Below are positions 6,200-60,475 of a DNA stretch of 64,000 nt, one piece after another. The notes under the pieces were generated by a model. That model ran no database searches. It saw only the letters and a program-made list of their open reading frames with translations, and was not told where the DNA came from. The stretch covers positions 16,702 to 80,701 of the forward strand of contig JAYWBQ010000028.1 of assembly GCA_043781255.1 (NCBI GenBank), read 5' to 3'. How positions within the stretch are numbered: position 1 is the stretch's first letter; each line of letters begins with the position of its first letter. Both the position numbers and the translations under genes were made by a program. The DNA is from Minisyncoccota bacterium. GTDB taxonomy: Bacteria; Patescibacteriota; Minisyncoccia; Phycocordibacterales; UBA5272.

Positions 6200-6805
6200 A
6201 TGAACCCTCAAGATGTAACTATACAAACATATCAGGATAATTTTGAGCTCTACAAAGAAAAGACACCGAGGGTACTATTTGGTGAATTTCTTACACGGAT
6301 GGATTCTTTTATAAATGTGCTTCCTCTACATGGAAAAATATTTGAACTAGGCTCTCTAGAGGGAAGAGATGCACGGTATTTGCGAGACAAGGGTTTCACT
6401 GTCACCTGTACAGATGTCATTCCACAAGCGCTTCAGTCACTAGAAGTAGATGGATTTACAACGTACTTCTATGACCTGAGAGATGAGCCAAAAGAAGAAT
6501 GGAGTAACTTATTTGATGGCATTATTGCAAAAGCCGTCTACCTTCATATGTCGCAGGAAATATTTGAAAAATCTCTCGCTTATATGGGTACGATTTTAAA
6601 AGTGGGAGGTATATTTTGTTTGACTTTTAAGCTGGGGGTTGGTGAGGAAATAGAAACAAGGAAGCTGGGAGGTGAGAGATATTTTAAGTATTACACACAA
6701 AAAGAGCTGGAAGCTATCGTAAAAAAATATCAGTGCTATGAGCTCGTCGATACAGTAACAATAGAAGATAAAAAGTGGATCCAGATTCTTCTGAGGAAGA
6801 AATAA
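6200..6805 (+). CDS. Class I SAM-dependent methyltransferase
   Basis: Motif I-like FELGSLEGRDARYL and the size (201 aa) are typical of small-molecule MTases. Confidence 0.65.
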   Translation: MNPQDVTIQTYQDNFELYKEKTPRVLFGEFLTRMDSFINVLPLHGKIFELGSLEGRDARYLRDKGFTVTCTDVIPQALQSLEVDGFTTYFYDLRDEPKEEWSNLFDGIIAKAVYLHMSQEIFEKSLAYMGTILKVGGIFCLTFKLGVGEEIETRKLGGERYFKYYTQKELEAIVKKYQCYELVDTVTIEDKKWIQILLRKK

Positions 6806-6885: not shown

Positions 6886-7728
6886 TTAGGCTGATGCCAT
6901 CTCGCGTTGCTCGAAGTCAACTTGGTCAACTTGGAACATCGACGAAACGTCGATACCACTCACGGGGACCTTTACGTCATCGTCATCACCAAATTCTGCC
7001 TTATGCTCTTCGTCGACCATTTTCATGGTGATGACGGCATCCATGGGCTGATCAAATGAATCTCGTGTCATTTTCATGAAGTTTTTCTGTACGTTTCGTG
7101 CTTTTGCTTTGGTAATCAACTCTTTCAAGTTGTGCTGCAAAAATGCAAGCATGCCATCCTGAACTTCCCCGATTTTCCCTCGCGTGAAGTTTGCCTTCAC
7201 GTGTTTCTGCAGAAGCCAGGTATGAGGGATGAAAATTCGCTCATGTGCGCCATCCCGGAGGAATGGTTCTTGAATAACCAAGATGTCTTGTGCAGGCTTG
7301 TCCCCATTTTTAGGGAACCAGCGAAGTGTGACAATAAAGTCGTTGGTGACGAACTGGTCATCAGAGTTTCGGCCGAAGACATGGTAGCTACCATGGGTGC
7401 CAATAACCATCTCTTTAAGACGATTTTGCTCCTGTTCAGCAAGAATTTTCTTTGTCTCGGCTTTTGCCTTTGCGGCTAGTGCCTGCTTTTGCTCTTGGTG
7501 AGCTTCTGCACGGTCTTGGTTTCGGTCAAAGTTCGGGATCATACCTTTCACTTCCTTTACCGGCTTGGCCGCTTGTACAGCCGCCTCTTTGGCAGCTTTT
7601 TTGTCAGCGAGAGTCGTTTTCTTTATCTGCTTAGTCATCGAGTACTCCAGTTGATGCCTGTTAGGGCTATAACAATTTAAAAGGACATGACCATGTAAAA
7701 GTACAGGGTCAAGATATATTATACACAA
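6886..7728 (-). CDS. Hypothetical protein with a Lys/Ala-rich N-terminal tail (possible nucleic-acid binding)
   Basis: Likely true start at 7638 (MTKQIKK...), which has a GGAG 8 nt upstream. The tail ADKKAAKEAAVQAAKPVKEVKG is histone-H1-like low complexity. The globular part matches no family I recognise. GC is higher than in neighbouring genes. Confidence 0.5.
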   Translation of the reverse strand: MCIIYLDPVLLHGHVLLNCYSPNRHQLEYSMTKQIKKTTLADKKAAKEAAVQAAKPVKEVKGMIPNFDRNQDRAEAHQEQKQALAAKAKAETKKILAEQEQNRLKEMVIGTHGSYHVFGRNSDDQFVTNDFIVTLRWFPKNGDKPAQDILVIQEPFLRDGAHERIFIPHTWLLQKHVKANFTRGKIGEVQDGMLAFLQHNLKELITKAKARNVQKNFMKMTRDSFDQPMDAVITMKMVDEEHKAEFGDDDDVKVPVSGIDVSSMFQVDQVDFEQREMASA

Positions 7729-23459: not shown

Positions 23460-23470
23460 CGAAGTTGGTT

Positions 23471-23507
23471 TTATTTACGAATAATACCCCGTGGCATTAG
23501 CCCAAGG
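23471..23507 (+). repeat. Hairpin-repeat family, degenerate type-A copy
   Basis: TTATTTACGAATAA palindrome + TACCCCGTGGCATTAGCCCAAGG. Confidence 0.4.
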
Positions 23508-23612
23508 ATGTTCATTGAAATAAAAAGACCCCCAGAATACGTAGCCGTTCAAGGATTAATCCCAGTACCACTTAATGTATATCCTTCACATGCTTAGAGC
23601 AAGGACAATTAG

Positions 23613-37414: not shown

Positions 37415-38720
37415 CACTCATAGTATGCTACCTACTCGCTCTTTTATTTCTATATTTCTAGTTAGCTCACTTTTACTCTTCTGTTCACCTTCTTTTCTGA
37501 CTCATACAGTCGCTCAAACAGCAGAGCAGTTAAAAGGTAATCTTGATACCCTGTCATTACAAATTAAAGCACTTGATGATGAAATTAAAGCGTTCAACTC
37601 AAAAATTAGCAAAACCCAAGGAGAGGCAAAAACCTTAAAAGAAGCTCTTACTAAACTAGAACTTCGACGCACAGGACTTTCAAAAGATATTTCCTATACA
37701 AAACTTCGGATTAATCAGGCTGAGCAAAATATTAGTTTTACGCAAGGAAAAATTAAAAATACAGAATCAACGCTTGATAAAACTAAAAGTGAGCTTGGAC
37801 TCTCTTTGCGGTTACTTGTCCATAATGAACAGTCTCTCCCATATTTTGTAAGTGCTCTTGCAAAGGGTGCTCACATCTCTGATGCGCTTGACATCACAAA
37901 ACGTGGAGAGGAGTTTACCACTGCTGTTAATCAAAAAACCCGTGCACTTGTTGATACTAAAACAACACTCTCAATTCAAAAAGCTTCATACGAACAACAC
38001 AAAAATGTTCTTCTCACACTTAATCAAACATTAACTGACCAAAAGATTCTAGTTGATCAAACATCAAAGGATAAGAGTTCTCTTCTTTCTGAAACAAAAG
38101 ATAAAGAGTCGACATATCAAAAGCTACTTGCTGAGAGGAAAAAAAAGAAAGGTGAGTTGGAAGTGGAAATGCTTGATGTTGAAGCAAAACTCCAAACAAT
38201 CGTGGACTCAAGTAAAATTCCTAAATATGGAAAGGGGATTCTTCAATATCCACTTGATAATGTTATCATCACTCAGTACTTTGGTAACACACCATTTTCA
38301 AGTAAAAACCCTCAAGTCTATAATGGTTCTGGGCATAATGGGGTCGATTTTGGTACAAAGATAGGTACGCCAATTTTATCTGCGGCAGCTGGCAGAGTGC
38401 TCGGTACCGGAGATACTGATGCATCATGTAATGGTGTGTCTTATGGTAAATGGGTTCTCATTAGACACGGCAATGGACTCACATCGCTCTATGCACATCT
38501 TTCTGTTATCCAAGCAAAAGTCGGAGATGTCGTTACCTCACGACAAAAAATTGGGCTCTCAGGAAATACCGGGTATAGTACTGGTCCACACTTACACTTT
38601 ACCGTGTATGCTTCTGATGCAGTTCAAATAACAAAGTATGTTAGTAAAGTATGTGGGACAAATATGACTATGCCAATTGCTCCACGTGCAGGGTATCTCA
38701 ATCCACTATCTTATTTGTAA
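37389..38720 (+). CDS. M23-family peptidoglycan endopeptidase with an N-terminal coiled coil (EnvC-like)
   Basis: Signal or TM segment, then a long coiled coil. C-terminal GHNGVDFGTKIGTPILSAAAGRV...GPHLHF carries the M23 HxxxD and HxH motifs. Confidence 0.8.
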   Translation: MFVAPLIHNTHSMLPTRSFISIFLVSSLLLFCSPSFLTHTVAQTAEQLKGNLDTLSLQIKALDDEIKAFNSKISKTQGEAKTLKEALTKLELRRTGLSKDISYTKLRINQAEQNISFTQGKIKNTESTLDKTKSELGLSLRLLVHNEQSLPYFVSALAKGAHISDALDITKRGEEFTTAVNQKTRALVDTKTTLSIQKASYEQHKNVLLTLNQTLTDQKILVDQTSKDKSSLLSETKDKESTYQKLLAERKKKKGELEVEMLDVEAKLQTIVDSSKIPKYGKGILQYPLDNVIITQYFGNTPFSSKNPQVYNGSGHNGVDFGTKIGTPILSAAAGRVLGTGDTDASCNGVSYGKWVLIRHGNGLTSLYAHLSVIQAKVGDVVTSRQKIGLSGNTGYSTGPHLHFTVYASDAVQITKYVSKVCGTNMTMPIAPRAGYLNPLSYL

Positions 38721-38753
38721 TCTTTCTTATTACTACATATACTGTTTACATAT

Positions 38754-38861
38754 ATGCTTACCTTCACTATCCCCGCACTCATACTCCTAATGATCTTGGC
38801 GTTTCTTGTCGGAGCTCTCATTGGTGGGGTTATTATTTATAGAAAGTCTACGGGAAAATAA
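38754..38861 (+). CDS. Small single-TM peptide (35 aa), copy 1 of a tandem pair; not in the ORF track
   Basis: MLTFTIPALILLMILAFLVGALIGGVIIYRKSTGK. Hydrophobic core with a basic C-terminus. The first 11 codons match copy 2 with mostly synonymous differences. Confidence 0.45.
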   Translation: MLTFTIPALILLMILAFLVGALIGGVIIYRKSTGK

Positions 38862-38873
38862 TTCATCTAAATT

Positions 38874-38975
38874 ATGCTAACATTCACTATTCCAGCCTTT
38901 ATTCTCTTGTTATTTATGTGTGCTTTAGTTGGTGCAACATTTGGAATTTGGGTTGTTCTTATAAAGTGGAGGTAG
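38874..38975 (+). CDS. Small single-TM peptide (33 aa), copy 2 of the tandem pair; not in the ORF track
   Basis: MLTFTIPAFILLLFMCALVGATFGIWVVLIKWR. It starts 13 nt after the stop of copy 1. Confidence 0.45.
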   Translation: MLTFTIPAFILLLFMCALVGATFGIWVVLIKWR

Positions 38976-39079
38976 ATAATTTTTGGTAAAGGTGAAAGGG
39001 TGAGGGGAGAAGTCCCCTATTTAAACTAGGGTTAGTTTTTAAATGTTAATTTAAGAGTTACGAGGGTTAGTATTTCTTT

Positions 39080-39116
39080 TTATTCGCGAATAATACCCTG
39101 TGGCGTCAGCCCAGGG
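39080..39116 (+). repeat. Hairpin-repeat family, type-A copy
   Basis: TTATTCGCGAATAA perfect palindrome + TACC + CCCTG-TGGCGTCAGCC-CAGGG hairpin. Confidence 0.6.
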
Positions 39117-39334
39117 ATGTAGCGAGTTCTGCATCCAGTTCTCCTTCGTTATGATACGATACAGGTATGTCTGCAAAACAGAATTACAAAAGGGGTAATC
39201 ACTGTGTATACCTGTGCGATTATCACATAGTGCTTCCGACCAAATTCAGACACTCATGTATCACAGAAGACCTGTGGTCGTACTTGTATGGGAAACTTCT
39301 GGAGATTACAAAACATTATCCGAATTCGTGAATA

Positions 39335-39362
39335 CTACCTCCATAGCGTCAGTCCAAGGTAG
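39335..39362 (+). repeat. Hairpin-repeat family, degenerate copy
   Basis: CTACCT-CCATAGCGTCAGTCCA-AGGTAG. The loop is related to TGGCGTCAGCC and the outer stem is compensated. Confidence 0.4.
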
Positions 39363-40057
39363 TTCATTGGTCAGTATGGTAAATACGGTACATTGTGGAA
39401 CAAGTTTGCTGTAAAGTTACTATTATTATAAAAATTTAAAAATGCAAAGGTTTTTAAAGTCTTGTAATGGCTAAAATAGCTTACCAGATAACTACGGTGA
39501 AGATGTGGGTTATTTAGGATACTTATGTCGTAAAAGATATATTGTGCGACATTAACTTATAATAACAAAAGCCCCCTCAACCTTATATATACAAAGGATT
39601 TTTCCCTTTGTCTTTTACTATTGATTATTACTAAATTTTTTAACAGCACTTACTGCCCTATCCATCCGTAGGTAACCATCAAGTCATCCTATTTCCTTTG
39701 TTACTATTTAAAAGCAAGTTAAGTCTTGGTTAATGTCATACATAGAAATATACTCTTACCAGATTAAGTCATTTTTACTGTAGTTCGATCTTAGATAGAC
39801 TACTGCTCGCACATAGCATGTCTCGCTTACTCTTTATAGATCTAAGTAAACACTGGATAACTATAAATCCCAAGTTACGATAGGCTCTAAGGTTAATTTT
39901 AGAGGATACTACCTACATCACTAGAATTATATATAAGACTACGATTACTTGGAATATATACCAAATCAGTAAAAAGTCTCTGATGTTACTGTAAAGATTA
40001 ACCATTAGTAAGATAAATTATTCCTACTATTTTTTATTCAATTGTTTTTATCTTTTT

Positions 40058-40093
40058 TAGTCCACACAAATCCTCCGTGGCGTCAGCCCGGAG
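40058..40093 (+). repeat. Hairpin-repeat family, type-B copy
   Basis: TAGTCCACACAAATC + CTCCG-TGGCGTCAGCC-CGGAG. Confidence 0.6.
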
Positions 40094-40235
40094 TTCTTTA
40101 GTTTATAATTATTATTTTATTATTTCTGTGGCTAAGACTACTTTTTCCTTGCTATTTTTTTTGAAAAAATATTTTAAGCTATAGTGAATGCTTTATATGT
40201 CTGCGTTTCCTCACCTTCCATTATAAAAGTAAAAT

Positions 40236-40263
40236 GGGTATGTATCCTTACAATACATACCCA
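40236..40263 (-). terminator. Hairpin terminator downstream of proS
   Basis: GGGTATGTAT-n8-ATACATACCC inverted repeat, followed on the minus strand by a T-rich run. Confidence 0.5.
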
Positions 40264-40331
40264 TTTAAACTATTAGATATAGCAAAATGTTTAGATAGAT
40301 AACTATAGAAAAGTGATACTGTCTTCTATGG

Positions 40332-41585
40332 CTAGCAAGCTTTTGTAAACATGTGAATGCACTGATCTACGGAAACAACATCAGAAGTTGTTCCTGTACG
40401 TTCCTTCACTTCAACTCCTCCTAAGGTGAGAGACTTGTCACTCACAACAACCCGCATAGGAATACCAATGAGATCACTATCAGCAAACTTTTCCCCTGCC
40501 TGTAACTCACGATCATCAAAGAGTACTTCTACATGGTTGTCAGTTAGTTGCTTGTATAAATACTCTGCTTGCTTGTAAGCTTCTCCATTTTTATCTTTTC
40601 CAAGCACGATAAGATGTATTGAGTATGGTGCAATAGATGCTGGCCATACGAGACCATTTTCATCAGATAATGTTTCAGCAATTACTCCCATAATACGACT
40701 GACCCCAATGCCATAACATCCCATAACGCCCCGCTTCCCTTCACCTTCCTTATCAATAAAAGAAAAATCAAAAGCTTCTTGGTAACGAGTGCCTAAGTCA
40801 AAGACATTCCCAACCTCGGAGGCCTTTCCTAATTTAAGTGGACCAGATCCATCTGGAGACTCATCTCCTTCTTCTAATTCTGTGATTTCTTTGTTGATGC
40901 AATAATTAGATTTTTCTGAATACAAAATATCATCTTCACCAGCATTGGTAAGCACCATGAATTCATATGATATTTTTTTTGAAAAACTGCCACCACTTGC
41001 CTCCGTTACTTTTGTCACAAGTCCAATCTCAGAATAAATCTCAAGGTACTTCTTCTTTGCTTGCTCATAAAATGTATCAAATGCATCTTGGTTTTCATGA
41101 ATTGTATACATGTCTTTCATAAGAAATTCTCGACCACGCATAATGCCTGCTTTTGCTCGAAGTTCATCTCTAAATTTCCAGTGAATTTGATATCCAATGA
41201 ATGGAAGATTTTTATATGATCGGATATATTCTTTAATAATTGGCGTCACAACCTCTTCTTCACTTTGTCCGATTGCATATTCTCGTTCAGTCCTGCTTTG
41301 AATTTTGAAGAGAACTTCAACAGAATCCCATGCACCAGTTGTTTTCCATAGTTCTGCCGGATGAAGCATCGACATAGTCATTTCTTGAGCGCCAAGCTCA
41401 TTCATTTTAAGCCTAACTATATCCTCAATTTTTCTAAGCACACGAAGACCTAGTGGAAGAAATGTGTAGGACCCCGCCATTGTTTTATGAACAAAACCAG
41501 CACGAATAAGTAGCTGTGCATTTTTACTTGTTTCATCTGCAGGTAGATCTTTAGTCGTCTTCGTAAATAATTGTGATTGTCGCAT
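40332..41585 (-). CDS. proS: Prolyl-tRNA synthetase (bacterial-like N-terminus, no INS editing domain)
   Basis: MRQSQLFTKTTKDLPADETSKNAQLLIRAGF matches the ProRS N-terminal consensus. Class II motifs present. 417 aa is too short to hold an INS domain. Confidence 0.85.
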   Translation of the reverse strand: MRQSQLFTKTTKDLPADETSKNAQLLIRAGFVHKTMAGSYTFLPLGLRVLRKIEDIVRLKMNELGAQEMTMSMLHPAELWKTTGAWDSVEVLFKIQSRTEREYAIGQSEEEVVTPIIKEYIRSYKNLPFIGYQIHWKFRDELRAKAGIMRGREFLMKDMYTIHENQDAFDTFYEQAKKKYLEIYSEIGLVTKVTEASGGSFSKKISYEFMVLTNAGEDDILYSEKSNYCINKEITELEEGDESPDGSGPLKLGKASEVGNVFDLGTRYQEAFDFSFIDKEGEGKRGVMGCYGIGVSRIMGVIAETLSDENGLVWPASIAPYSIHLIVLGKDKNGEAYKQAEYLYKQLTDNHVEVLFDDRELQAGEKFADSDLIGIPMRVVVSDKSLTLGGVEVKERTGTTSDVVSVDQCIHMFTKAC

Positions 41586-42731: not shown

Positions 42732-42823
42732 AGAACAGACTGAAGCAGGTACACTCTAGACTTTAGCTTTTTAATTCAAATGTATACAAAAAATGGTATC
42801 TTTGGAAATCAGTTTTTGTACTT

Positions 42824-42860
42824 TAGTCCACACAAATCCTCCGTGGCGTTAGTCCGGGAG
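42824..42860 (+). repeat. Hairpin-repeat family, type-B copy
   Basis: TAGTCCACACAAATC + CTCCG-TGGCGTTAGTC-CGGGAG. Confidence 0.55.
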
Positions 42861-42942: not shown

Positions 42943-42965
42943 AATCCTCTGTGGCGTCAGTCTAG
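42943..42965 (+). repeat. Hairpin-repeat family, degenerate type-B copy
   Basis: AATCCTCTG-TGGCGTCAGTC-TAG. Confidence 0.4.
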
Positions 42966-43008
42966 TATTCTTTAGTTATGGGCTACAGGCTAATTGCTAC
43001 AGTCTGTA

Positions 43009-54173: not shown

Positions 54174-56639
54174 TTATTTTTCTGAAAGCAACTTTTTAAG
54201 TGGAGTTTTTGTAAGAGAATATGCAATGTAATATGAGAAGGTAGATGTCACCACTAAAATACCGATGGTAATATACAGTGGAGTAATTGCAAAAGTGAAA
54301 AGCTTAAAAGAAAAAAGATAGGTATTAAGAATGAAAGCAACGCCATGCGCCACAAGATACGAGATAAACGTTGCAATAAGAATAAGAACTGCTGTCTCAG
54401 CAACAAAAAGGAATGTAATAGTCATTCTCGTTAGGCCGTAGACTCGAAGCACAAGTACATCCCCTTTTCTTTCGTAGAGTGATTGACCCGTCATAACAAG
54501 GACCAGCATAAGACCAAGGAGGATACTCGGTATACCAATTATTTTTACAACTAGAATAATTGAAGTTAGTAATGTATTTATGGTTTCTAAGATTGTGCTT
54601 GTACCAAGTGGAATTATATTTGGATATAGGTTACCTATCTTTGTTTCAATTTCTTCCACAGTTTCTTTATTTACATCTACTGTTCCAAAATAGGATGCTG
54701 GGAATGTAGCTAAAACATCTGGTGAGAATACCATATAAAAATAAGGAGTACCTCTAGCCTTGTCTGCTTCATGAATGCTCGTGACTTTTGCTGTAATAAT
54801 AATACCTTGAACAAAGACGGACACCATATCTCCGACTTCAACACCCCCTGCTTCCTTAGCAAATGACTTTTCAAAAGAAACTGACTGCTTGCTACTATCT
54901 GCCCCATGCCACACACCCGAAGAAACTATTTCACCATCAATAAGAGTGTCTCGGTATGTCATATTTAATTCTCTGGTCACTTCTCTGTCTTTTGACATTG
55001 TAATATCTCTATCGTTAATAGTTAACAATCTTCCACGGATAATTGGATACTCCTTAAACGTTGATCCAGCTATCTCTTTTACTTTTGGTAATTGCGAAGT
55101 AGTGATGTCAACAAGATATAGAGCTGGGGTAGATTTTGAAATAGTCCCGTGCAAGTTGTACATAATATTCTGTTCAACAGCAGAAACAATAAATACTCCA
55201 GCAAGTGCTGTCATAATAGACGCAGAAGTTATCATGGTTTCAATTCCTCGCCATTTTAAAAATGAAATAATACTTGAAAACATAAATGAAAAGTATCTTC
55301 GATTATTATAGAGATATGTCACGACACCGTACGAGATAAGCATAAAAAAAGAAAATAGCAGGATAAGACCAAGTACACCATAGAGAGTAAGTTGTATATC
55401 TTTGGATATACCGTAAAGCAATATTCCTAAAAAAAGTGGTATAGGGCTATAGGTAAGTATATTTGTAATTATTTTTTTATTTGTGGTGGTGGATATATTA
55501 GAAAGTAATTGTTTTGGGTTAATATATTTAAGTGAATTAAAAAATGGAATAGAAGAAATTATAATTAGTATGAAGCCACTACAACCACCAAGAATAACAA
55601 TAGGAATAATTGCAGTACTTGGAATAATTCCTTCAATGTAAAGAGAAAGAGTGGGTAAAAACATCGTAGTACCAAATGCTCCTAAAAAAGTACCGAGTGC
55701 TCCCGCAGTGATCCCTAGTGTGCCTAGAATAATCGAATATATACATTGTATTTGTAGTGTGGTAGCCCCAAATGTCTTTAGAAGGGCTATAGTTTTTTTG
55801 AAGCGAGCAAGGATATATGTTAAGTTGGCTCCAATATTTACTGCGACTAAGAATAATGCAATAGCGAGGATAATCCCTGCAAAATCTTGAACTGAAGAAA
55901 GGCCTTCTACTAAGTTGTTCGGACCATCTCTCGCATCATCAAATCGTAGTTTATTATCTTTTGCAAATGTTTTGATGCTATCGATAGTTTCTTTCGTTAA
56001 AGGTAGTATTTCATTTTCTTTAATGGAAATTTTATATGAGACTCTACTTTGACTGAGATTAATTCCTGATGTTAGGATATCATCTTGTGACATTATTACG
56101 GTTGGGCTAAACGAAACCCCAAGAGATACCTTATCCGGCTCTTTAAGAAGTACACCTGCTACTTTATAAGAACTCGTACCAATAAAAACGTTATCACCCA
56201 GAGAAATACCTAGTTTTTTTAGGAACGGTCTTTCTGCGTAGATTATATTATGACCAACAAGAAAAGGAACATTATCTTCTACGGAGATTTTTCCATACAA
56301 CGGAAAGTCTTTTCCTACAAAACGGATATTCGTAGATATGGTAGAAGACCCAGTAGTATTTCGAAAAACTGCTTGCACATCATACTCAGCAGTGAGAATA
56401 TAATCTTTTTTTATAAGACCAGCAAATAGCTCGTTAGCAGTGTCTATTTTGTTGGAACTTTTAAGTACAATATCACCACCTAGTAAGGTTTTACCTTGTG
56501 TAGTAAAAAAGGATGACAAACTTTTCGATAATGATAGAATTGCTCCAAAAAGGAAAGCCCCCACAAGAAGGCTAAAAAACGTTAAAAGAAGGTACTTATA
56601 TGAGCGAATAAAAATAATCTTAACAAAATAATATATCAT
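54174..56639 (-). CDS. ABC transporter permease, FtsX/MacB-like with two permease modules
   Basis: 821 aa with two FtsX-like 4-TM modules separated by large extracytoplasmic domains. Overlaps the ATPase gene upstream. Confidence 0.8.
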   Translation of the reverse strand: MIYYFVKIIFIRSYKYLLLTFFSLLVGAFLFGAILSLSKSLSSFFTTQGKTLLGGDIVLKSSNKIDTANELFAGLIKKDYILTAEYDVQAVFRNTTGSSTISTNIRFVGKDFPLYGKISVEDNVPFLVGHNIIYAERPFLKKLGISLGDNVFIGTSSYKVAGVLLKEPDKVSLGVSFSPTVIMSQDDILTSGINLSQSRVSYKISIKENEILPLTKETIDSIKTFAKDNKLRFDDARDGPNNLVEGLSSVQDFAGIILAIALFLVAVNIGANLTYILARFKKTIALLKTFGATTLQIQCIYSIILGTLGITAGALGTFLGAFGTTMFLPTLSLYIEGIIPSTAIIPIVILGGCSGFILIIISSIPFFNSLKYINPKQLLSNISTTTNKKIITNILTYSPIPLFLGILLYGISKDIQLTLYGVLGLILLFSFFMLISYGVVTYLYNNRRYFSFMFSSIISFLKWRGIETMITSASIMTALAGVFIVSAVEQNIMYNLHGTISKSTPALYLVDITTSQLPKVKEIAGSTFKEYPIIRGRLLTINDRDITMSKDREVTRELNMTYRDTLIDGEIVSSGVWHGADSSKQSVSFEKSFAKEAGGVEVGDMVSVFVQGIIITAKVTSIHEADKARGTPYFYMVFSPDVLATFPASYFGTVDVNKETVEEIETKIGNLYPNIIPLGTSTILETINTLLTSIILVVKIIGIPSILLGLMLVLVMTGQSLYERKGDVLVLRVYGLTRMTITFLFVAETAVLILIATFISYLVAHGVAFILNTYLFSFKLFTFAITPLYITIGILVVTSTFSYYIAYSLTKTPLKKLLSEK

Positions 56640-57307
56640 TGCTCGTGTTGTAGTAAATGTATCATTCCATCTTTTATTTCATAAATATCGTCCATCTGCC
56701 TTGCAATATTCATATCGTGCGTAATGATAACAAATGTCTTTTTGTTTTCTTTTATTGTTCTTAAAAAAAGATCTAAGATTTTTTTCCCGTTTACTGCATC
56801 TAAATTACCAGTAGGTTCATCTGCAAAAATAATTTCACTTCCAGAAGCTAGTGCTCGTGCTATTGCCACTCGTTGCTGTTCCCCTCCTGATAATGTAGCT
56901 GGTAGATTATTCTTTCTATGCGTGAGATTAATCTCTTTAAAAAGCATGTCTACTTTTTCTGTGTTTACTTCATTTCTAATTGAAAGTGGTAGCATTACGT
57001 TTTCATATGCAGTGAAAAATTGCACTAATTCAAAAGCTTGAAAAATGATACTAATCTTTTTATTTCTAAACAATGCTAATTCTTGTTCATTAAGAGATGC
57101 AATGTCTACCTCGTCTATGAGCACCTCTCCTGTTGAAGGTTTATCTAACCCAGAGAGAATCGATAATAATGTTGATTTACCAGACCCTGAAGGACCTATG
57201 ATGGCAACACGCTTCCCAGTTTCTATGGTAAAACTGACATCCTTGAGAATAGTTACTTTACTATCTCCATCGAGAAATGTTTTTGATATATTCTTAACTG
57301 TGATCAT
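56636..57307 (-). CDS. ABC transporter ATP-binding protein (LolD/MacB-type)
   Basis: Walker A GPSGSGKST. Signature LSGGEQQRVAIARAL. Walker B IIFADEPT. Confidence 0.9.
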   Translation of the reverse strand: MITVKNISKTFLDGDSKVTILKDVSFTIETGKRVAIIGPSGSGKSTLLSILSGLDKPSTGEVLIDEVDIASLNEQELALFRNKKISIIFQAFELVQFFTAYENVMLPLSIRNEVNTEKVDMLFKEINLTHRKNNLPATLSGGEQQRVAIARALASGSEIIFADEPTGNLDAVNGKKILDLFLRTIKENKKTFVIITHDMNIARQMDDIYEIKDGMIHLLQHEQ

Positions 57308-60307: not shown

Positions 60308-60332
60308 TCTACGAGCTGAGTAAATGAACCTC

Positions 60333-60368
60333 CCCGGGCTGACGCCACGGGGTATTATTCGCGAATAA
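60333..60368 (-). repeat. Hairpin-repeat family, type-A copy in inverse orientation
   Basis: The reverse complement reads TTATTCGCGAATAA + TACC + CCCG-TGGCGTCAGCC-CGGGG. Confidence 0.6.
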
Positions 60369-60475
60369 AAAATAGTTTTTTGTAAGAAATTAGAGACCAG
60401 AACGTCACAATAGATGAGCCTCGTGATATTGCAAGTAATTATACAAATGTTTCTTAATTAATACTCATAAATACT

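What the first reader, a model, noticed from the sequence alone, without database searches (positions are those of the whole stretch)
38754..38975. Tandem pair of paralogous 33-35-aa single-TM peptide genes missed by the ORF track
Two adjacent mini-ORFs share the N-terminus MLTFTIPA(L/F)ILL.

- **Synonymous differences.** They differ mostly at synonymous sites (ctt/cta, acc/aca, atc/att, ccc/cca, gca/gcc). This is the signature of purifying selection on a real protein.
- **Composition.** Each has one hydrophobic helix and a basic C-terminus (YRKSTGK; LIKWR).
- **Context.** The pair lies directly downstream of an M23 peptidoglycan hydrolase gene and upstream of the hairpin-repeat-rich 1.25-kb non-coding region.

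The peptides could be small membrane regulators, type-I-toxin-like or bacteriocin-like peptides, or hydrolase-associated membrane partners. Neither has an obvious SD, so translation may be coupled or leaderless.
Basis: seen in the sequence. Interest (0 to 1): 0.6.

Follow-up and report, generated by a model that had tools for sequence, protein, structure and literature searches.

The report
Conserved 33-residue membrane mini-protein gene pair
Two tiny adjacent genes that standard gene finders skip are real: they encode a conserved, previously unnamed family of ~33-residue membrane-spanning peptides that in a group of ultra-small (CPR/Paceibacteria) bacteria always sits right behind a cell-wall-cutting enzyme gene, so they probably belong to the cell-wall/division machinery.

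Summary
ORF1 (38754-38861, 35 aa) and ORF2 (38874-38975, 33 aa) are paralogues. Seventeen of 33 aligned residues are identical, and 12 of those use different codons.

Homologues lie directly after the M23 hydrolase gene in 37 of 80 related Paceibacteria/Parcubacteria loci, as two copies or one. All 15 contigs found through the peptide itself show the same arrangement.

Synonymous sites are saturated (pS ~0.7-0.8) while pN is 0.06-0.27 against the nearest orthologues, so these are protein-coding genes under purifying selection.

Each peptide is one uncharged helix (AlphaFold residues 5-32, pLDDT 93) with a conserved N-terminus MxTFTIPAF, a G20xxxG24 motif, W26 and a basic tail. This predicts an N-out/C-in topology.

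The genome hardly uses Shine-Dalgarno sites. ORF1 has the genome-typical TATACT box 10 nt before its ATG, which fits a leaderless mRNA. ORF2 follows after 12 nt, which fits coupled translation.

No Pfam, NCBIfam or PHROG family matches. The few called relatives are unnamed, or labelled "YneF", a label my family scans do not support.

Function is inferred, not shown: most likely a membrane accessory of the envelope/division machinery encoded upstream (mraY-ftsW-murG-gltX-M23). Nothing found supports a type I toxin, bacteriocin or holin. This is a real new small-protein family of moderate interest.

The parts
37425..38720 (+). Upstream neighbour: a secreted peptidoglycan hydrolase with a coiled-coil region followed by a Peptidase_M23 domain. 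The longest ORF starts at TTG 37389; the likely start is ATG 37425 (MLPTRSF...).
   Evidence: - Pfam PF01551, E 8.5e-27, residues 315-408; the N-terminal part gives only weak matches to coiled-coil families.
- PDB relatives match only the M23 domain.
- The N-terminus looks like a variable signal peptide ending ..AQ|TAEQL, followed by conserved heptad-like sequence.
- It ends directly upstream of the peptide gene in all 15 peptide-anchored contigs.
38715..38743 (+). Promoter-like site for the peptide genes: -35 TTGTAA (38715-38720, overlapping the M23 stop codon), a 17-nt spacer, then -10 TATACT (38738-38743), which lies 10 nt before the ORF1 ATG.
   Evidence: - Found by the consensus scan.
- A TATACT or TATAAT box lies 3-14 nt upstream of the first peptide ATG in 23 of 38 genomes, and some TAnnnT box in 33 of 38.
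- The same arrangement marks 20 of 57 long genes in this window against a 4.6% background (p 4e-13), while an SD core occurs in only 2 of 57.
- The transcription start site itself is inferred, not mapped.
38754..38861 (+). ORF1, the 'A-type' paralogue, 35 aa: MLTFTIPALILLMILAFLVGALIGGVIIYRKSTGK.
   Evidence: - Coordinates and sequence.
- Orthologues in L001-L007 and others.
- Against L001: 18 synonymous and 9 non-synonymous differences, pS 0.77, pN 0.13.
- A copies are most similar to A copies of other genomes in 16 of 22 cases, and never to the B copy of their own genome.
38874..38975 (+). ORF2, the 'B-type' paralogue, 33 aa: MLTFTIPAFILLLFMCALVGATFGIWVVLIKWR. This is the more conserved type, and the one that single-copy genomes resemble.
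   Evidence: - Coordinates and sequence.
- Against L001: 15 synonymous and 4 non-synonymous differences, pS 0.69, pN 0.06.
- AlphaFold2 gives a single helix over residues 5-32 with mean pLDDT 93.
- It starts 12 nt after the ORF1 stop; this gap is 0-28 nt in other genomes.
39003..39041 (+). Terminator-like hairpins after ORF2. AGGGGA-GAAG-TCCCCT (39003-39018) overlaps CCCTA-TTTAAAC-TAGGG (39015-39031), which is followed by TTAGTTTTT.
   Evidence: - The second hairpin was found by the scan. The first I read directly from the sequence.
- Similar GGGGA/TCCCC hairpins follow the genes in L001 and follow M23 in L017.
- My simple hairpin rule found a terminator in only 7 of 38 genomes, so this part is weakly supported.

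Best explanation
**What it is (well supported).** ORF1 and ORF2 are two genuine protein-coding genes under purifying selection. They encode an old pair of paralogues from a previously unnamed family of 31-37-residue single-pass membrane mini-proteins. So far the family is seen only in one clade of Paceibacteria/Parcubacteria (CPR).

**Predicted protein.** Each peptide is essentially one transmembrane helix.
- The short uncharged N-terminus, with the conserved motif M-(I/L)-T-F-T-I-P-A-F, faces outward.
- A G20-x-x-x-G24 motif lies in the membrane core.
- W26 sits at the inner interface, and a Lys/Arg tail is in the cytoplasm.

**Expression (inferred from sequence signals).** A conserved -10 box (TATACT) about 6-13 nt before the first ATG drives a leaderless or nearly leaderless bicistronic mRNA. 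This is how many genes of this SD-less genome appear to start. The second cistron, 0-28 nt downstream, would be translated by coupling or re-initiation.

**Function (inferred from gene order only).** The peptides act as membrane-embedded accessory subunits or regulators of the cell-envelope growth and division machinery encoded in the same cluster (dacA-mraY-ftsW-murG-gltX-M23). The most likely partner is a membrane complex that works with the secreted coiled-coil M23 hydrolase encoded immediately upstream.
For: **Coding**
- There are 60 homologues in 37 related loci plus the window, all in the same strand and slot, with conserved length and stop position.
- Synonymous sites are saturated (pS 0.69-0.79) while pN is 0.06-0.27 against the nearest orthologues. 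pN is below pS in 99-100% of 785 ortholog pairs.
- Profile searches, one word-indexed over 5.8 billion clusters and one exhaustive over 1.84 billion representatives, find only 22 and 48 relatives. All but one are 32-53 aa; 45 of these 47 align from residue 1, and two have 11-12 extra N-terminal residues. None is a domain of a larger protein.

**Membrane helix and topology**
- None of the 60 members has a charged residue in the first 26 positions. The last 8 residues carry a mean net charge of +1.7. G20 is present in 59 of 60, and position 24 is G, A, S or T in all 60.
- AlphaFold2 gives one helix over residues 5-32, pLDDT 93.

**Expression**
- A promoter-like site lies at 38715-38743, and the -10 box is conserved across genomes.
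- Genome-wide, -10 boxes sit 4-12 nt before start codons in 20 of 57 genes (p 4e-13), and SD cores occur in 2 of 57.

**Link to M23 and the cell wall**
- All 15 contigs found via the peptide itself have M23 directly upstream, even where the downstream genes differ.
- The cluster context is dacA-mraY-ftsW-murG-gltX-M23.
- In more distant Parcubacteria the same slot after M23 holds a different orphan membrane protein of about 80-116 aa, in 28 loci. The two families never co-occur in a locus. A membrane-protein gene after M23 is therefore a persistent feature.
- There is a precedent for single-pass membrane proteins binding the coiled-coil domain of a division hydrolase: SteB with RipC (PMC6705760).
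Against: - The functional link rests on gene order alone. CPR genomes keep gene order over long distances, so adjacency may be inherited rather than functional.
- The peptide exposes only about 4-8 residues outside the membrane, which is little surface for binding a secreted coiled-coil protein. SteB, the precedent, uses an extracellular domain.
- M23 has its own cleavable-looking, poorly conserved signal peptide, so no M23 transmembrane helix is available to pack against.
- The peptide genes have their own promoter, so they need not be co-regulated with M23.
- Conservation along the helix does not fall on one helical face (100-degree moment, permutation p 0.98). I therefore have no positive evidence for a single packing interface.
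- L017 (65% M23 identity) has a terminator hairpin directly after M23 and no peptide gene within the 150 nt left on that contig. L038 lacks the gene as well.
- There are no transcript, ribosome or proteome data.
Confidence: 0.5

Rival explanations
1. The genes are real and the peptides are membrane mini-proteins, but their job has nothing to do with M23 or the cell wall. They could, for example, be a stabilising subunit of another membrane complex, or a membrane-property modulator. They sit behind M23 only because gene order is inherited in these streamlined genomes.
For: - All the coding and membrane evidence applies equally here.
- The peptide genes have their own promoter.
- The extracellular part is tiny, and M23 has a cleavable-looking signal peptide.
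- gltX, which has no cell-wall role, sits in the same conserved cluster. This shows that order here is not purely functional.
Against: - Adjacency to M23 survives where the downstream neighbourhood has been replaced (L085).
- It holds in 15 of 15 peptide-anchored contigs.
- A different membrane-protein family occupies the same slot in distant relatives, and the two never co-occur.
Confidence: 0.3
2. The peptides are type I toxin-like: small hydrophobic peptides that depolarise or permeabilise the membrane when made, and that are normally silenced by an antisense or trans-acting RNA.
For: - The size, the single hydrophobic helix and the basic C-terminus resemble TisB, Fst and BsrG-type toxins (comparison from memory).
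- Tandem duplication is common for such loci.
Against: - The locus is fixed and syntenic over species whose M23 is only about 45-50% identical, under steady purifying selection.
- The duplication is old and the copies have diverged into distinct types.
- The mRNA is predicted to be leaderless from a consensus-like -10 box, leaving no 5' UTR to structure or to target.
- Antisense -10-like boxes show no positional clustering within or after the genes, and the scan found no minus-strand promoter in 38744-39050.
- No conserved sequence lies next to the genes except a 26-nt DNA palindrome about 550 nt away.
- None of the 60 members matched a toxin family in NCBIfam or Pfam.
Confidence: 0.07
3. The peptides are a holin-like or export helper for the M23 hydrolase, or a secreted bacteriocin-like peptide pair.
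For: They are adjacent to a peptidoglycan hydrolase gene, and the peptides are small and hydrophobic.
Against: - M23 carries its own Sec-type signal peptide. It sits in a housekeeping dcw-like cluster, not a prophage.
- No PHROG family matches any member at a meaningful level.
- I saw no double-glycine or other leader in the sequences, and no ABC exporter or immunity gene among the neighbours I annotated.
- The whole peptide is one transmembrane helix, so there is no separable mature secreted part.
Confidence: 0.05
4. The ORFs are not translated. The conservation reflects an RNA or DNA element.
For: The ORFs are very short, have no SD, and are absent from public gene calls.
Against: - The nucleotide sequence is poorly conserved while the amino-acid sequence is kept. 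Synonymous sites are saturated, and 12 of the 17 identical residues between the paralogues use different codons.
- There are no frameshifts or stops in 60 copies.
- No Rfam match was found.
- Lack of an SD is the norm in this genome.
Confidence: 0.02

Closest known systems
Bacterial small single-pass membrane proteins that act as accessory subunits or regulators of larger membrane machines (e.g. AcrZ, KdpF, CydX, MgtS; the FtsW-binding division inhibitor SidA of Caulobacter). Recalled from memory, not tested here.
   Same: They share the size class (about 30-50 aa), being essentially one transmembrane helix with a short basic tail, being routinely missed by annotation, and often being encoded next to the partner's genes.
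   Different: No sequence relationship was detected to any curated family. The partner here is unknown. The family is confined to a CPR clade and occurs as an old tandem paralogue pair.
SteA/SteB-RipC-FtsEX cell-separation complex of Corynebacterineae (PMC6705760)
   Same: Single-pass membrane proteins work with a secreted coiled-coil peptidoglycan hydrolase at the division site. SteB binds the hydrolase's N-terminal coiled-coil domain.
   Different: SteB needs its extracellular C-terminal domain for that binding, whereas the peptides here have almost nothing outside the membrane. There is no homology. SteAB are not encoded next to ripC in the way described here.
Type I toxin peptides (TisB, Fst, BsrG, Hok-like)
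   Same: They are short, hydrophobic, single-helix peptides with a positively charged end, and they are sometimes tandemly duplicated.
   Different: The locus here is fixed and vertically inherited under long-term purifying selection. No antisense RNA signal was found. The mRNA is predicted to be leaderless and constitutive-looking. No family match was found.
UPF0154 / YneF (COG3763), the name JGI gave to two relatives (P0003, P0010)
   Same: Both have an N-terminal Gly-containing transmembrane helix followed by basic residues.
   Different: By my recollection, YneF proteins are about 70 aa with a cytoplasmic domain after the helix. The peptides here end right after the helix. None of the 60 members matched UPF0154 in Pfam at E<=0.1. 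The label most likely reflects a transmembrane-segment-only similarity.
The second orphan membrane-protein family found after M23 in more distant Parcubacteria (about 80-116 aa..GGFIKLIILI..W..YL..P..Y.W..ERIK.G)
   Same: It occupies the same genomic slot, immediately downstream of the orthologous M23 gene on the same strand. It is also a single-TM protein without a Pfam family. The two families never occur in the same locus.
   Different: It is about three times longer. Its N-terminus is charged, which predicts N-in topology. It carries a conserved Trp/Tyr-rich extracytoplasmic domain. No sequence similarity to the 33-aa family was detected.

Membership tests
Type I toxin-antitoxin toxin peptide | Small (<60 aa) hydrophobic membrane peptide | tested here: met
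   The peptides are 33-35 aa and form one helix over residues 5-32. No charged residue occurs in the first 26 positions.
Type I toxin-antitoxin toxin peptide | An RNA antitoxin encoded antisense to, or next to, the toxin gene, with its own promoter | tested here: inconclusive
   - No minus-strand promoter-like site was found in 38744-39050.
- Antisense -10-like boxes are not positionally clustered across 38 genomes.
- No Rfam hit was found.
- Absence of an RNA cannot be proven from sequence alone.
Type I toxin-antitoxin toxin peptide | Patchy, often multi-copy or mobile distribution rather than a fixed housekeeping locus | tested here: not met
   The genes are always in the same slot after M23, in 37 M23-anchored loci and in all 15 peptide-anchored contigs. 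There is no further copy in the 64-kb window.
UPF0154 / YneF (Pfam PF03672, COG3763) | A match to the family profile | tested here: not met
   None of the 60 members matches it at E<=0.1 in Pfam. No NCBIfam equivalent was hit.
UPF0154 / YneF (Pfam PF03672, COG3763) | A length of about 70 aa with a soluble domain after the transmembrane helix (recalled from memory) | tested here: not met
   Family members are 31-39 aa and stop 3-8 residues after the helix.
Phage-type holin | Membership of a phage lysis cassette or a known holin family | tested here: not met
   No meaningful PHROG match was found. The neighbours are housekeeping genes: mraY, ftsW, murG, gltX, proS and rseP-like M50.
Type IV pilin / Flp / TadE-like prepilin (weak sub-threshold Pfam TadE hits for 4 of 60 members) | A class III signal peptide with Gly at -1 and Glu at +5 (or the Flp G/XXXXEY motif), followed by a globular or extended mature part (recalled from memory) | tested here: not met
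   - The consensus starts MITFTIPAF directly.
- There is no charged leader.
- There is no conserved Gly before the hydrophobic stretch.
- None of the 60 members has Glu or any other charge in the first 26 residues.
- All hits are below the curated cut-off.
Leaderless mRNA gene (expression class) | A -10 promoter element ending about 6-12 nt upstream of the start codon, with no SD | tested here: met
   - TATACT ends 10 nt before the ORF1 ATG.
- The box is conserved in most orthologous loci.
- The same pattern is enriched genome-wide, in 20 of 57 genes against a 4.6% background.
Leaderless mRNA gene (expression class) | A mapped transcription start at or within a few nt of the start codon | not testable with these tools
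   This needs dRNA-seq or 5' RACE on a sample that contains this organism.

The most novel reading that the evidence does not exclude
The A/B peptide pair forms a minimal membrane module specific to one Paceibacteria clade. This module would tether or switch the secreted coiled-coil M23 hydrolase, or the FtsW-type synthase encoded in the same cluster. It would do, with two 33-residue helices, the job that a larger membrane partner does elsewhere: the ~100-aa family that fills the same slot in sister clades, or FtsEX/SteAB-type partners in other bacteria. That would make it one of the smallest dedicated regulators of cell-wall cleavage or division known.
Probability: 0.15. Interest if true: 0.6.

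Novelty: new member of a known kind. Interest (0 to 1): 0.4.

Why it matters
- **Annotation gap.** CPR/Patescibacteria have tiny genomes in which almost every conserved gene is expected to matter, yet many of their proteins are unannotated. Here is a mini-protein family under clear purifying selection that gene callers rarely report. I found 60 copies in 38 genomes, against only 22 clusters among 5.8 billion in public protein sets.
- **Candidate missing part.** The family sits at the end of the cell-wall/division cluster. If it is an accessory of the hydrolase or synthase machinery, it is a candidate missing component of division in organisms where some canonical divisome proteins are hard to find.
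- **Gene calling in this lineage.** The locus also shows that this lineage starts many genes without a Shine-Dalgarno site and with a -10 box a few bases before the ATG. Gene calling in these genomes should take this into account.

Tried and rejected
- **Word-indexed protein search with the peptides or alignment A1.** I got round this by putting a natural 40-aa upstream-extended ORF from L001 first in the alignment.
- **Exact-sequence look-up of both peptides.** Neither is on record.
- **Curated family libraries for all 60 members.** Pfam, NCBIfam and PHROGs gave only scattered sub-threshold transmembrane-segment hits (DUF3169, DUF6050, TadE, LapA and others), with no consistent family.
- **Rfam.** I ran it at gathering threshold on the whole window and at E<=1 on 38700-40400. 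Nothing overlaps the ORFs; the only hit is a chance-level IS128 match at 40225-40397.
- **Conserved helical face.** I tested whether conservation lies on one face of the helix, as evidence for a packing interface. It does not: the moment at 100 degrees is below the permutation mean, p 0.98. I therefore do not claim an interface beyond the GxxxG motif.
- **Antisense promoter search (type I antitoxin).** There is no positional clustering.
- **M23 transmembrane anchor.** I looked for a conserved M23 transmembrane helix the peptides could pack against. The M23 N-terminus is a variable, cleavable-looking signal peptide.
- **FtsE/FtsX near the locus.** None turned up among the 21 window proteins I scanned against Pfam. 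The only ABC system seen is an ATPase plus an 821-aa FtsX-like permease at 54174-57307.
- **Metagenome scan with the full alignment.** A 10-sequence sub-alignment worked.
- **GC skew to test whether the locus lies at the replication terminus.** Not decisive within 64 kb.
- **Fold search of the model.** Not run, because a single helix has no informative fold.
Full report
**1. The observation**

The two ORFs exist exactly as described.
- ORF1: 38754..38861, 35 aa, MLTFTIPALILLMILAFLVGALIGGVIIYRKSTGK.
- ORF2: 38874..38975, 33 aa, MLTFTIPAFILLLFMCALVGATFGIWVVLIKWR.

They align without gaps over their whole length, not only at the N-terminus. Seventeen of 33 residues are identical, and 12 of those 17 use different codons. 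The Nei-Gojobori proportions are pS 0.79 and pN 0.33 over 31 codons. For codons 1-12 they are pS 0.95 and pN 0.04. The duplication is therefore old enough to have saturated silent sites while the protein sequence was kept.

The upstream gene (likely start 37425, stop 38720) carries a Peptidase_M23 domain (E 8.5e-27) behind a long region that gives weak coiled-coil matches. A stretch of about 1.35 kb without long ORFs follows, up to the convergent proS gene.

**2. Organism and relatives**

A scan of species-representative genomes with the M23 protein returned 80 loci. All are from Paceibacterota/Parcubacteria/Nomurabacteria-type CPR metagenome-assembled genomes, with M23 identity from 84% down to 36%.

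I extracted every 20-100-aa ORF from these loci and iterated an HMM seeded with the two peptides. This gave 60 significant hits.
- All are on the M23 strand.
- In 36 of the 38 genomes the first copy starts 9-55 nt after the M23 stop; L023 has a gap of 71 nt and L042 one of 148 nt.
- They fall in 37 loci plus the window.
- Twenty-two genomes have a tandem pair and 16 have a single gene.
- No other hit below E 0.002 occurred anywhere else in about 1 Mb of six-frame small ORFs.

The consensus is MITFTIPAFILxxFxxFLxGxxxGxWxxLxKxK.

**3. Coding evidence**

Against the six nearest orthologues, synonymous sites are saturated (pS 0.69-0.77) while pN is 0.06-0.27. For the B copy against L001 there are 15 synonymous and 4 non-synonymous differences. 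Over 785 ortholog pairs pN is below pS in 99-100%. Length and stop position are conserved, and there is no frameshift in 60 copies. No Rfam family overlaps the ORFs.

**4. Distribution and naming**

The exact peptides are not called anywhere in the public gene-position index.
- A profile search of 5.8 billion protein clusters found 22 relatives of 32-50 aa. Most are unnamed, and JGI labelled two 'YneF (UPF0154)'.
- An exhaustive HMMER pass over 1.84 billion representatives found 48 hits at E<=1e-3. Forty-seven are 32-53 aa; 45 of them align from residue 1, and two have 11-12 extra N-terminal residues. The remaining hit is a repetitive 155-aa protein that looks spurious.

This is therefore a stand-alone mini-protein family, never a domain of something larger. 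None of the 60 members matches UPF0154 or any other Pfam, NCBIfam or PHROG family consistently or above a curated cut-off. The YneF label is most likely a transmembrane-segment artefact.

**5. The protein**

- None of the 60 members has a charged residue in the first 26 positions.
- The last eight residues carry a mean net charge of +1.7.
- Conserved positions are P7 (49/60), G20 (59/60), position 24 (G/A/S/T in 60/60), W26 (35/60) and K31 (42/60).
- AlphaFold2, using the family alignment, gives one continuous helix over residues 5-32 with mean pLDDT 93.

By the positive-inside rule (general knowledge), the N-terminus is outside and the basic tail is cytoplasmic. The strongest conservation is in the N-terminal TFTIPAF stretch, which would lie at the outer membrane surface, and in the G20xxxG24-W26 segment. 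Conservation does not fall on one helical face, so I do not claim a defined packing surface.

A copies are most similar to A copies of other genomes (16 of 22) and never to the B copy of their own genome. Single-copy genes resemble B. B therefore looks ancestral and A looks like an old, faster-evolving duplicate.

**6. Expression signals**

The consensus scan finds TTGTAA-17-TATACT at 38715-38743, with the -10 box ending 10 nt before the ORF1 ATG. A TATACT or TATAAT box lies 3-14 nt before the first peptide ATG in 23 of 38 genomes, and some TAnnnT box in 33 of 38. It also appears in the metagenome loci.

This is how genes start in this genome generally. Of 57 non-overlapping long ORFs in the window, 20 have such a box 4-12 nt before the start codon against a 4.6% background (binomial p 4e-13). 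Only 2 have an SD core against a 9.8% background. The missing SD is therefore normal here. ORF1 is best read as the first cistron of a leaderless or near-leaderless mRNA.

ORF2 starts 12 nt after the ORF1 stop, and this gap is 0-28 nt elsewhere. That suits coupling or re-initiation. Terminator-like hairpins follow at 39003-39041. A simple terminator rule fires in only 7 of 38 genomes, so this part is weak. All expression statements are inferred from sequence.

**7. Context and the case for a cell-envelope role**

Upstream on the same strand lie scpA, scpB, an S11 D-Ala-D-Ala carboxypeptidase, mraY, ftsW/rodA, murG, gltX and the M23 gene. Downstream and convergent lie proS, an M50 (RseP-like) protease and frr.

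To avoid circularity from the M23-anchored loci, I also looked up contigs through the peptides themselves.
- Three database relatives gave five contigs.
- A metagenome scan with the pattern M[IL]TFTIPA gave ten loci.
- In all 15, the M23 orthologue ends just upstream. This includes a contig whose downstream genes are entirely different, a MarR regulator and an RND efflux system (L085).

In the more distant Parcubacteria (M23 identity 36-47%) the 33-aa family is absent. There the slot after M23 is filled in 28 loci by another orphan membrane protein. It is about 80-116 aa, with a predicted N-in transmembrane helix followed by a Trp/Tyr-rich domain. That family is absent from every locus that has the 33-aa family, and from the 64-kb window.

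A small membrane-protein gene after this hydrolase gene is thus a persistent feature whose occupant was exchanged. This is the best argument for a functional link. A literature precedent exists for single-pass membrane proteins binding the coiled-coil domain of a division hydrolase, SteB with RipC (PMC6705760).

Several points argue against a direct peptide-M23 contact.
- The peptide has almost no extracellular part.
- M23 has a variable, cleavable-looking signal peptide rather than a transmembrane anchor.
- The peptides have their own promoter.

I therefore put about 0.95 on 'real membrane mini-proteins' and only about 0.4-0.5 on 'accessory of the envelope/division machinery'. The specific partner is open.

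**8. Rivals**

- **Type I toxin.** The fixed, vertically inherited locus, the long-term purifying selection, the predicted leaderless mRNA and the lack of any positioned antisense promoter or conserved flanking RNA all argue against it. The absence of an RNA cannot be proven from sequence.
- **Holin or bacteriocin.** There is no phage context or PHROG match. I saw no leader peptide in the sequences and no exporter or immunity genes among the neighbours I annotated. M23 also has its own signal peptide.
- **Non-coding.** This is excluded for practical purposes by the substitution pattern.
- **Unrelated membrane function.** This is the serious rival. The peptides may be a real membrane mini-protein family whose function is unrelated to M23 and whose adjacency is merely inherited.

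**9. Novelty and score**

This is a new, unnamed family of a well-known kind: bacterial small single-pass membrane proteins, which are routinely under-annotated. It is solid and tidy, and of moderate interest (0.4). It adds a candidate component to the poorly understood CPR envelope/division apparatus and documents SD-less, leaderless gene starts in this lineage. It does not overturn anything, and its function remains inferred.

**10. Seen in passing**

- The 'non-coding' region contains a 26-nt polar palindrome at 39526-39551, TGTCGTAAAAGATATATTGTGCGACA. It occurs once in the window and once in each of 59 of the 85 loci held at that point, including relatives whose M23 is only 38-45% identical. 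It usually lies 300-450 nt after the M23 stop.
- Its layout is two inverted arms of about 10 nt around a 6-nt centre. The variant in L055 shares 18 of 26 positions with the E. coli dif site as I recall it. Together these make a Xer/dif-type recombination site the leading guess.
- The DNA between the palindrome and proS differs between close relatives.
- Upstream of the palindrome, the window holds a fragment of an IS200-type transposase (39167-39331). REP-like hairpins that recur elsewhere in the window lie on both sides of it.
- GC skew within the window does not settle whether this is the terminus.

Noticed in passing
window 39526..39551 (conserved block about 39527..39617); also L001 7877, L002 3939, L055 6772 and others: - **Sequence.** A 26-nt polar palindrome, TGTCGTAAAAGATATATTGTGCGACA, with arms of about 10 nt around a 6-nt centre.
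- **Distribution.** It is single-copy in the window and occurs once in each of 59 of the 85 loci held at that point, even where M23 is only 38-45% identical. It usually lies 300-450 nt downstream of M23. A TATAAT-like box and a CCCC(T) run follow it.
- **What it is not.** It has no Rfam family and shows no compensatory changes.
- **Leading guess.** Its architecture, and an 18/26 match of the L055 variant to E. coli dif (recalled from memory), suggest a Xer/dif-type recombination site or an integration hotspot.
- **Alternatives.** An operator-plus-promoter of a roughly 50-nt RNA, or an NrdR-box-like site.
- **Supporting context.** Genes converge here, and the DNA beyond it is variable between relatives.
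- **Open point.** GC skew is inconclusive.
   Followed up: partly
whole window (for example the starts at 6200, 17863, 20629, 30527, 32803, 48707 and 57348): The genome is essentially free of Shine-Dalgarno sites: an SD core occurs before 2 of 57 long ORFs, below background. By contrast, 20 of 57 ORFs have a -10 box, often TGnTATACT, ending 4-12 nt before the start codon (p 4e-13). This implies pervasive leaderless mRNAs in this Paceibacteria genome.
   Followed up: yes
L041, L044-L046, L049-L057, L059-L063, L065-L067, L069, L072-L074, L076, L078, L079 (for example L053 from about 7251 and L054 from about 1992): - **What it is.** In more distant Parcubacteria the gene after M23 is a different orphan membrane protein of about 80-116 aa (M..QGGFIKLIILIIIV..SYF.I.LR.I.ES...Q.N..Y.W.....W..YL..P..Y.W...ERIK.G).
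- **Features.** It has no Pfam family, and its topology is predicted N-in.
- **Distribution.** It is present in 28 loci and never occurs together with the 33-aa family.
   Followed up: partly
window 39167..39331 (+): A 54-aa ORF matches only the first 39 positions of the IS200-type Y1 transposase profile (PF01797, E 7.8e-4, below the cut-off). It is probably a truncated IS200/RAYT-like pseudogene inside the intergenic region.
   Followed up: partly
window about 39077..39120 and 40056..40103; related copies at 60328..60371 (-), 23469..23511, 42822..42857 and 42943..42977: Short GC-rich hairpin repeats (core ...GTGGCGTCAGCCC...) recur in several intergenic regions of the window. They look REP-like and may be linked to the Y1-transposase remnant.
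   Followed up: no
L025, L026, L029, L030, L034, L036, L067 (5-45 nt upstream of the 26-nt palindrome): DnaA-box-like TGTGGATAA / TGTGGATAG motifs lie just upstream of the conserved palindrome in several relatives. The window has only a degenerate TGTGGAACA at about 39396. Their significance is unknown; they could bear on whether this locus is a replication landmark.
   Followed up: no
L040 7324..7455 and 7466..7582; L047 4383..4541; L027 7333..7428: These are borderline, longer or divergent relatives of the peptide family (MITLTLFKLVV..., 43 aa; MITLTVFQFIF..., 44 aa; MIVISISGFLG..., 31 aa), with E 0.002-0.15. They sit in the same slot in genomes near the edge of the family's range and may be intermediate forms.
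   Followed up: no
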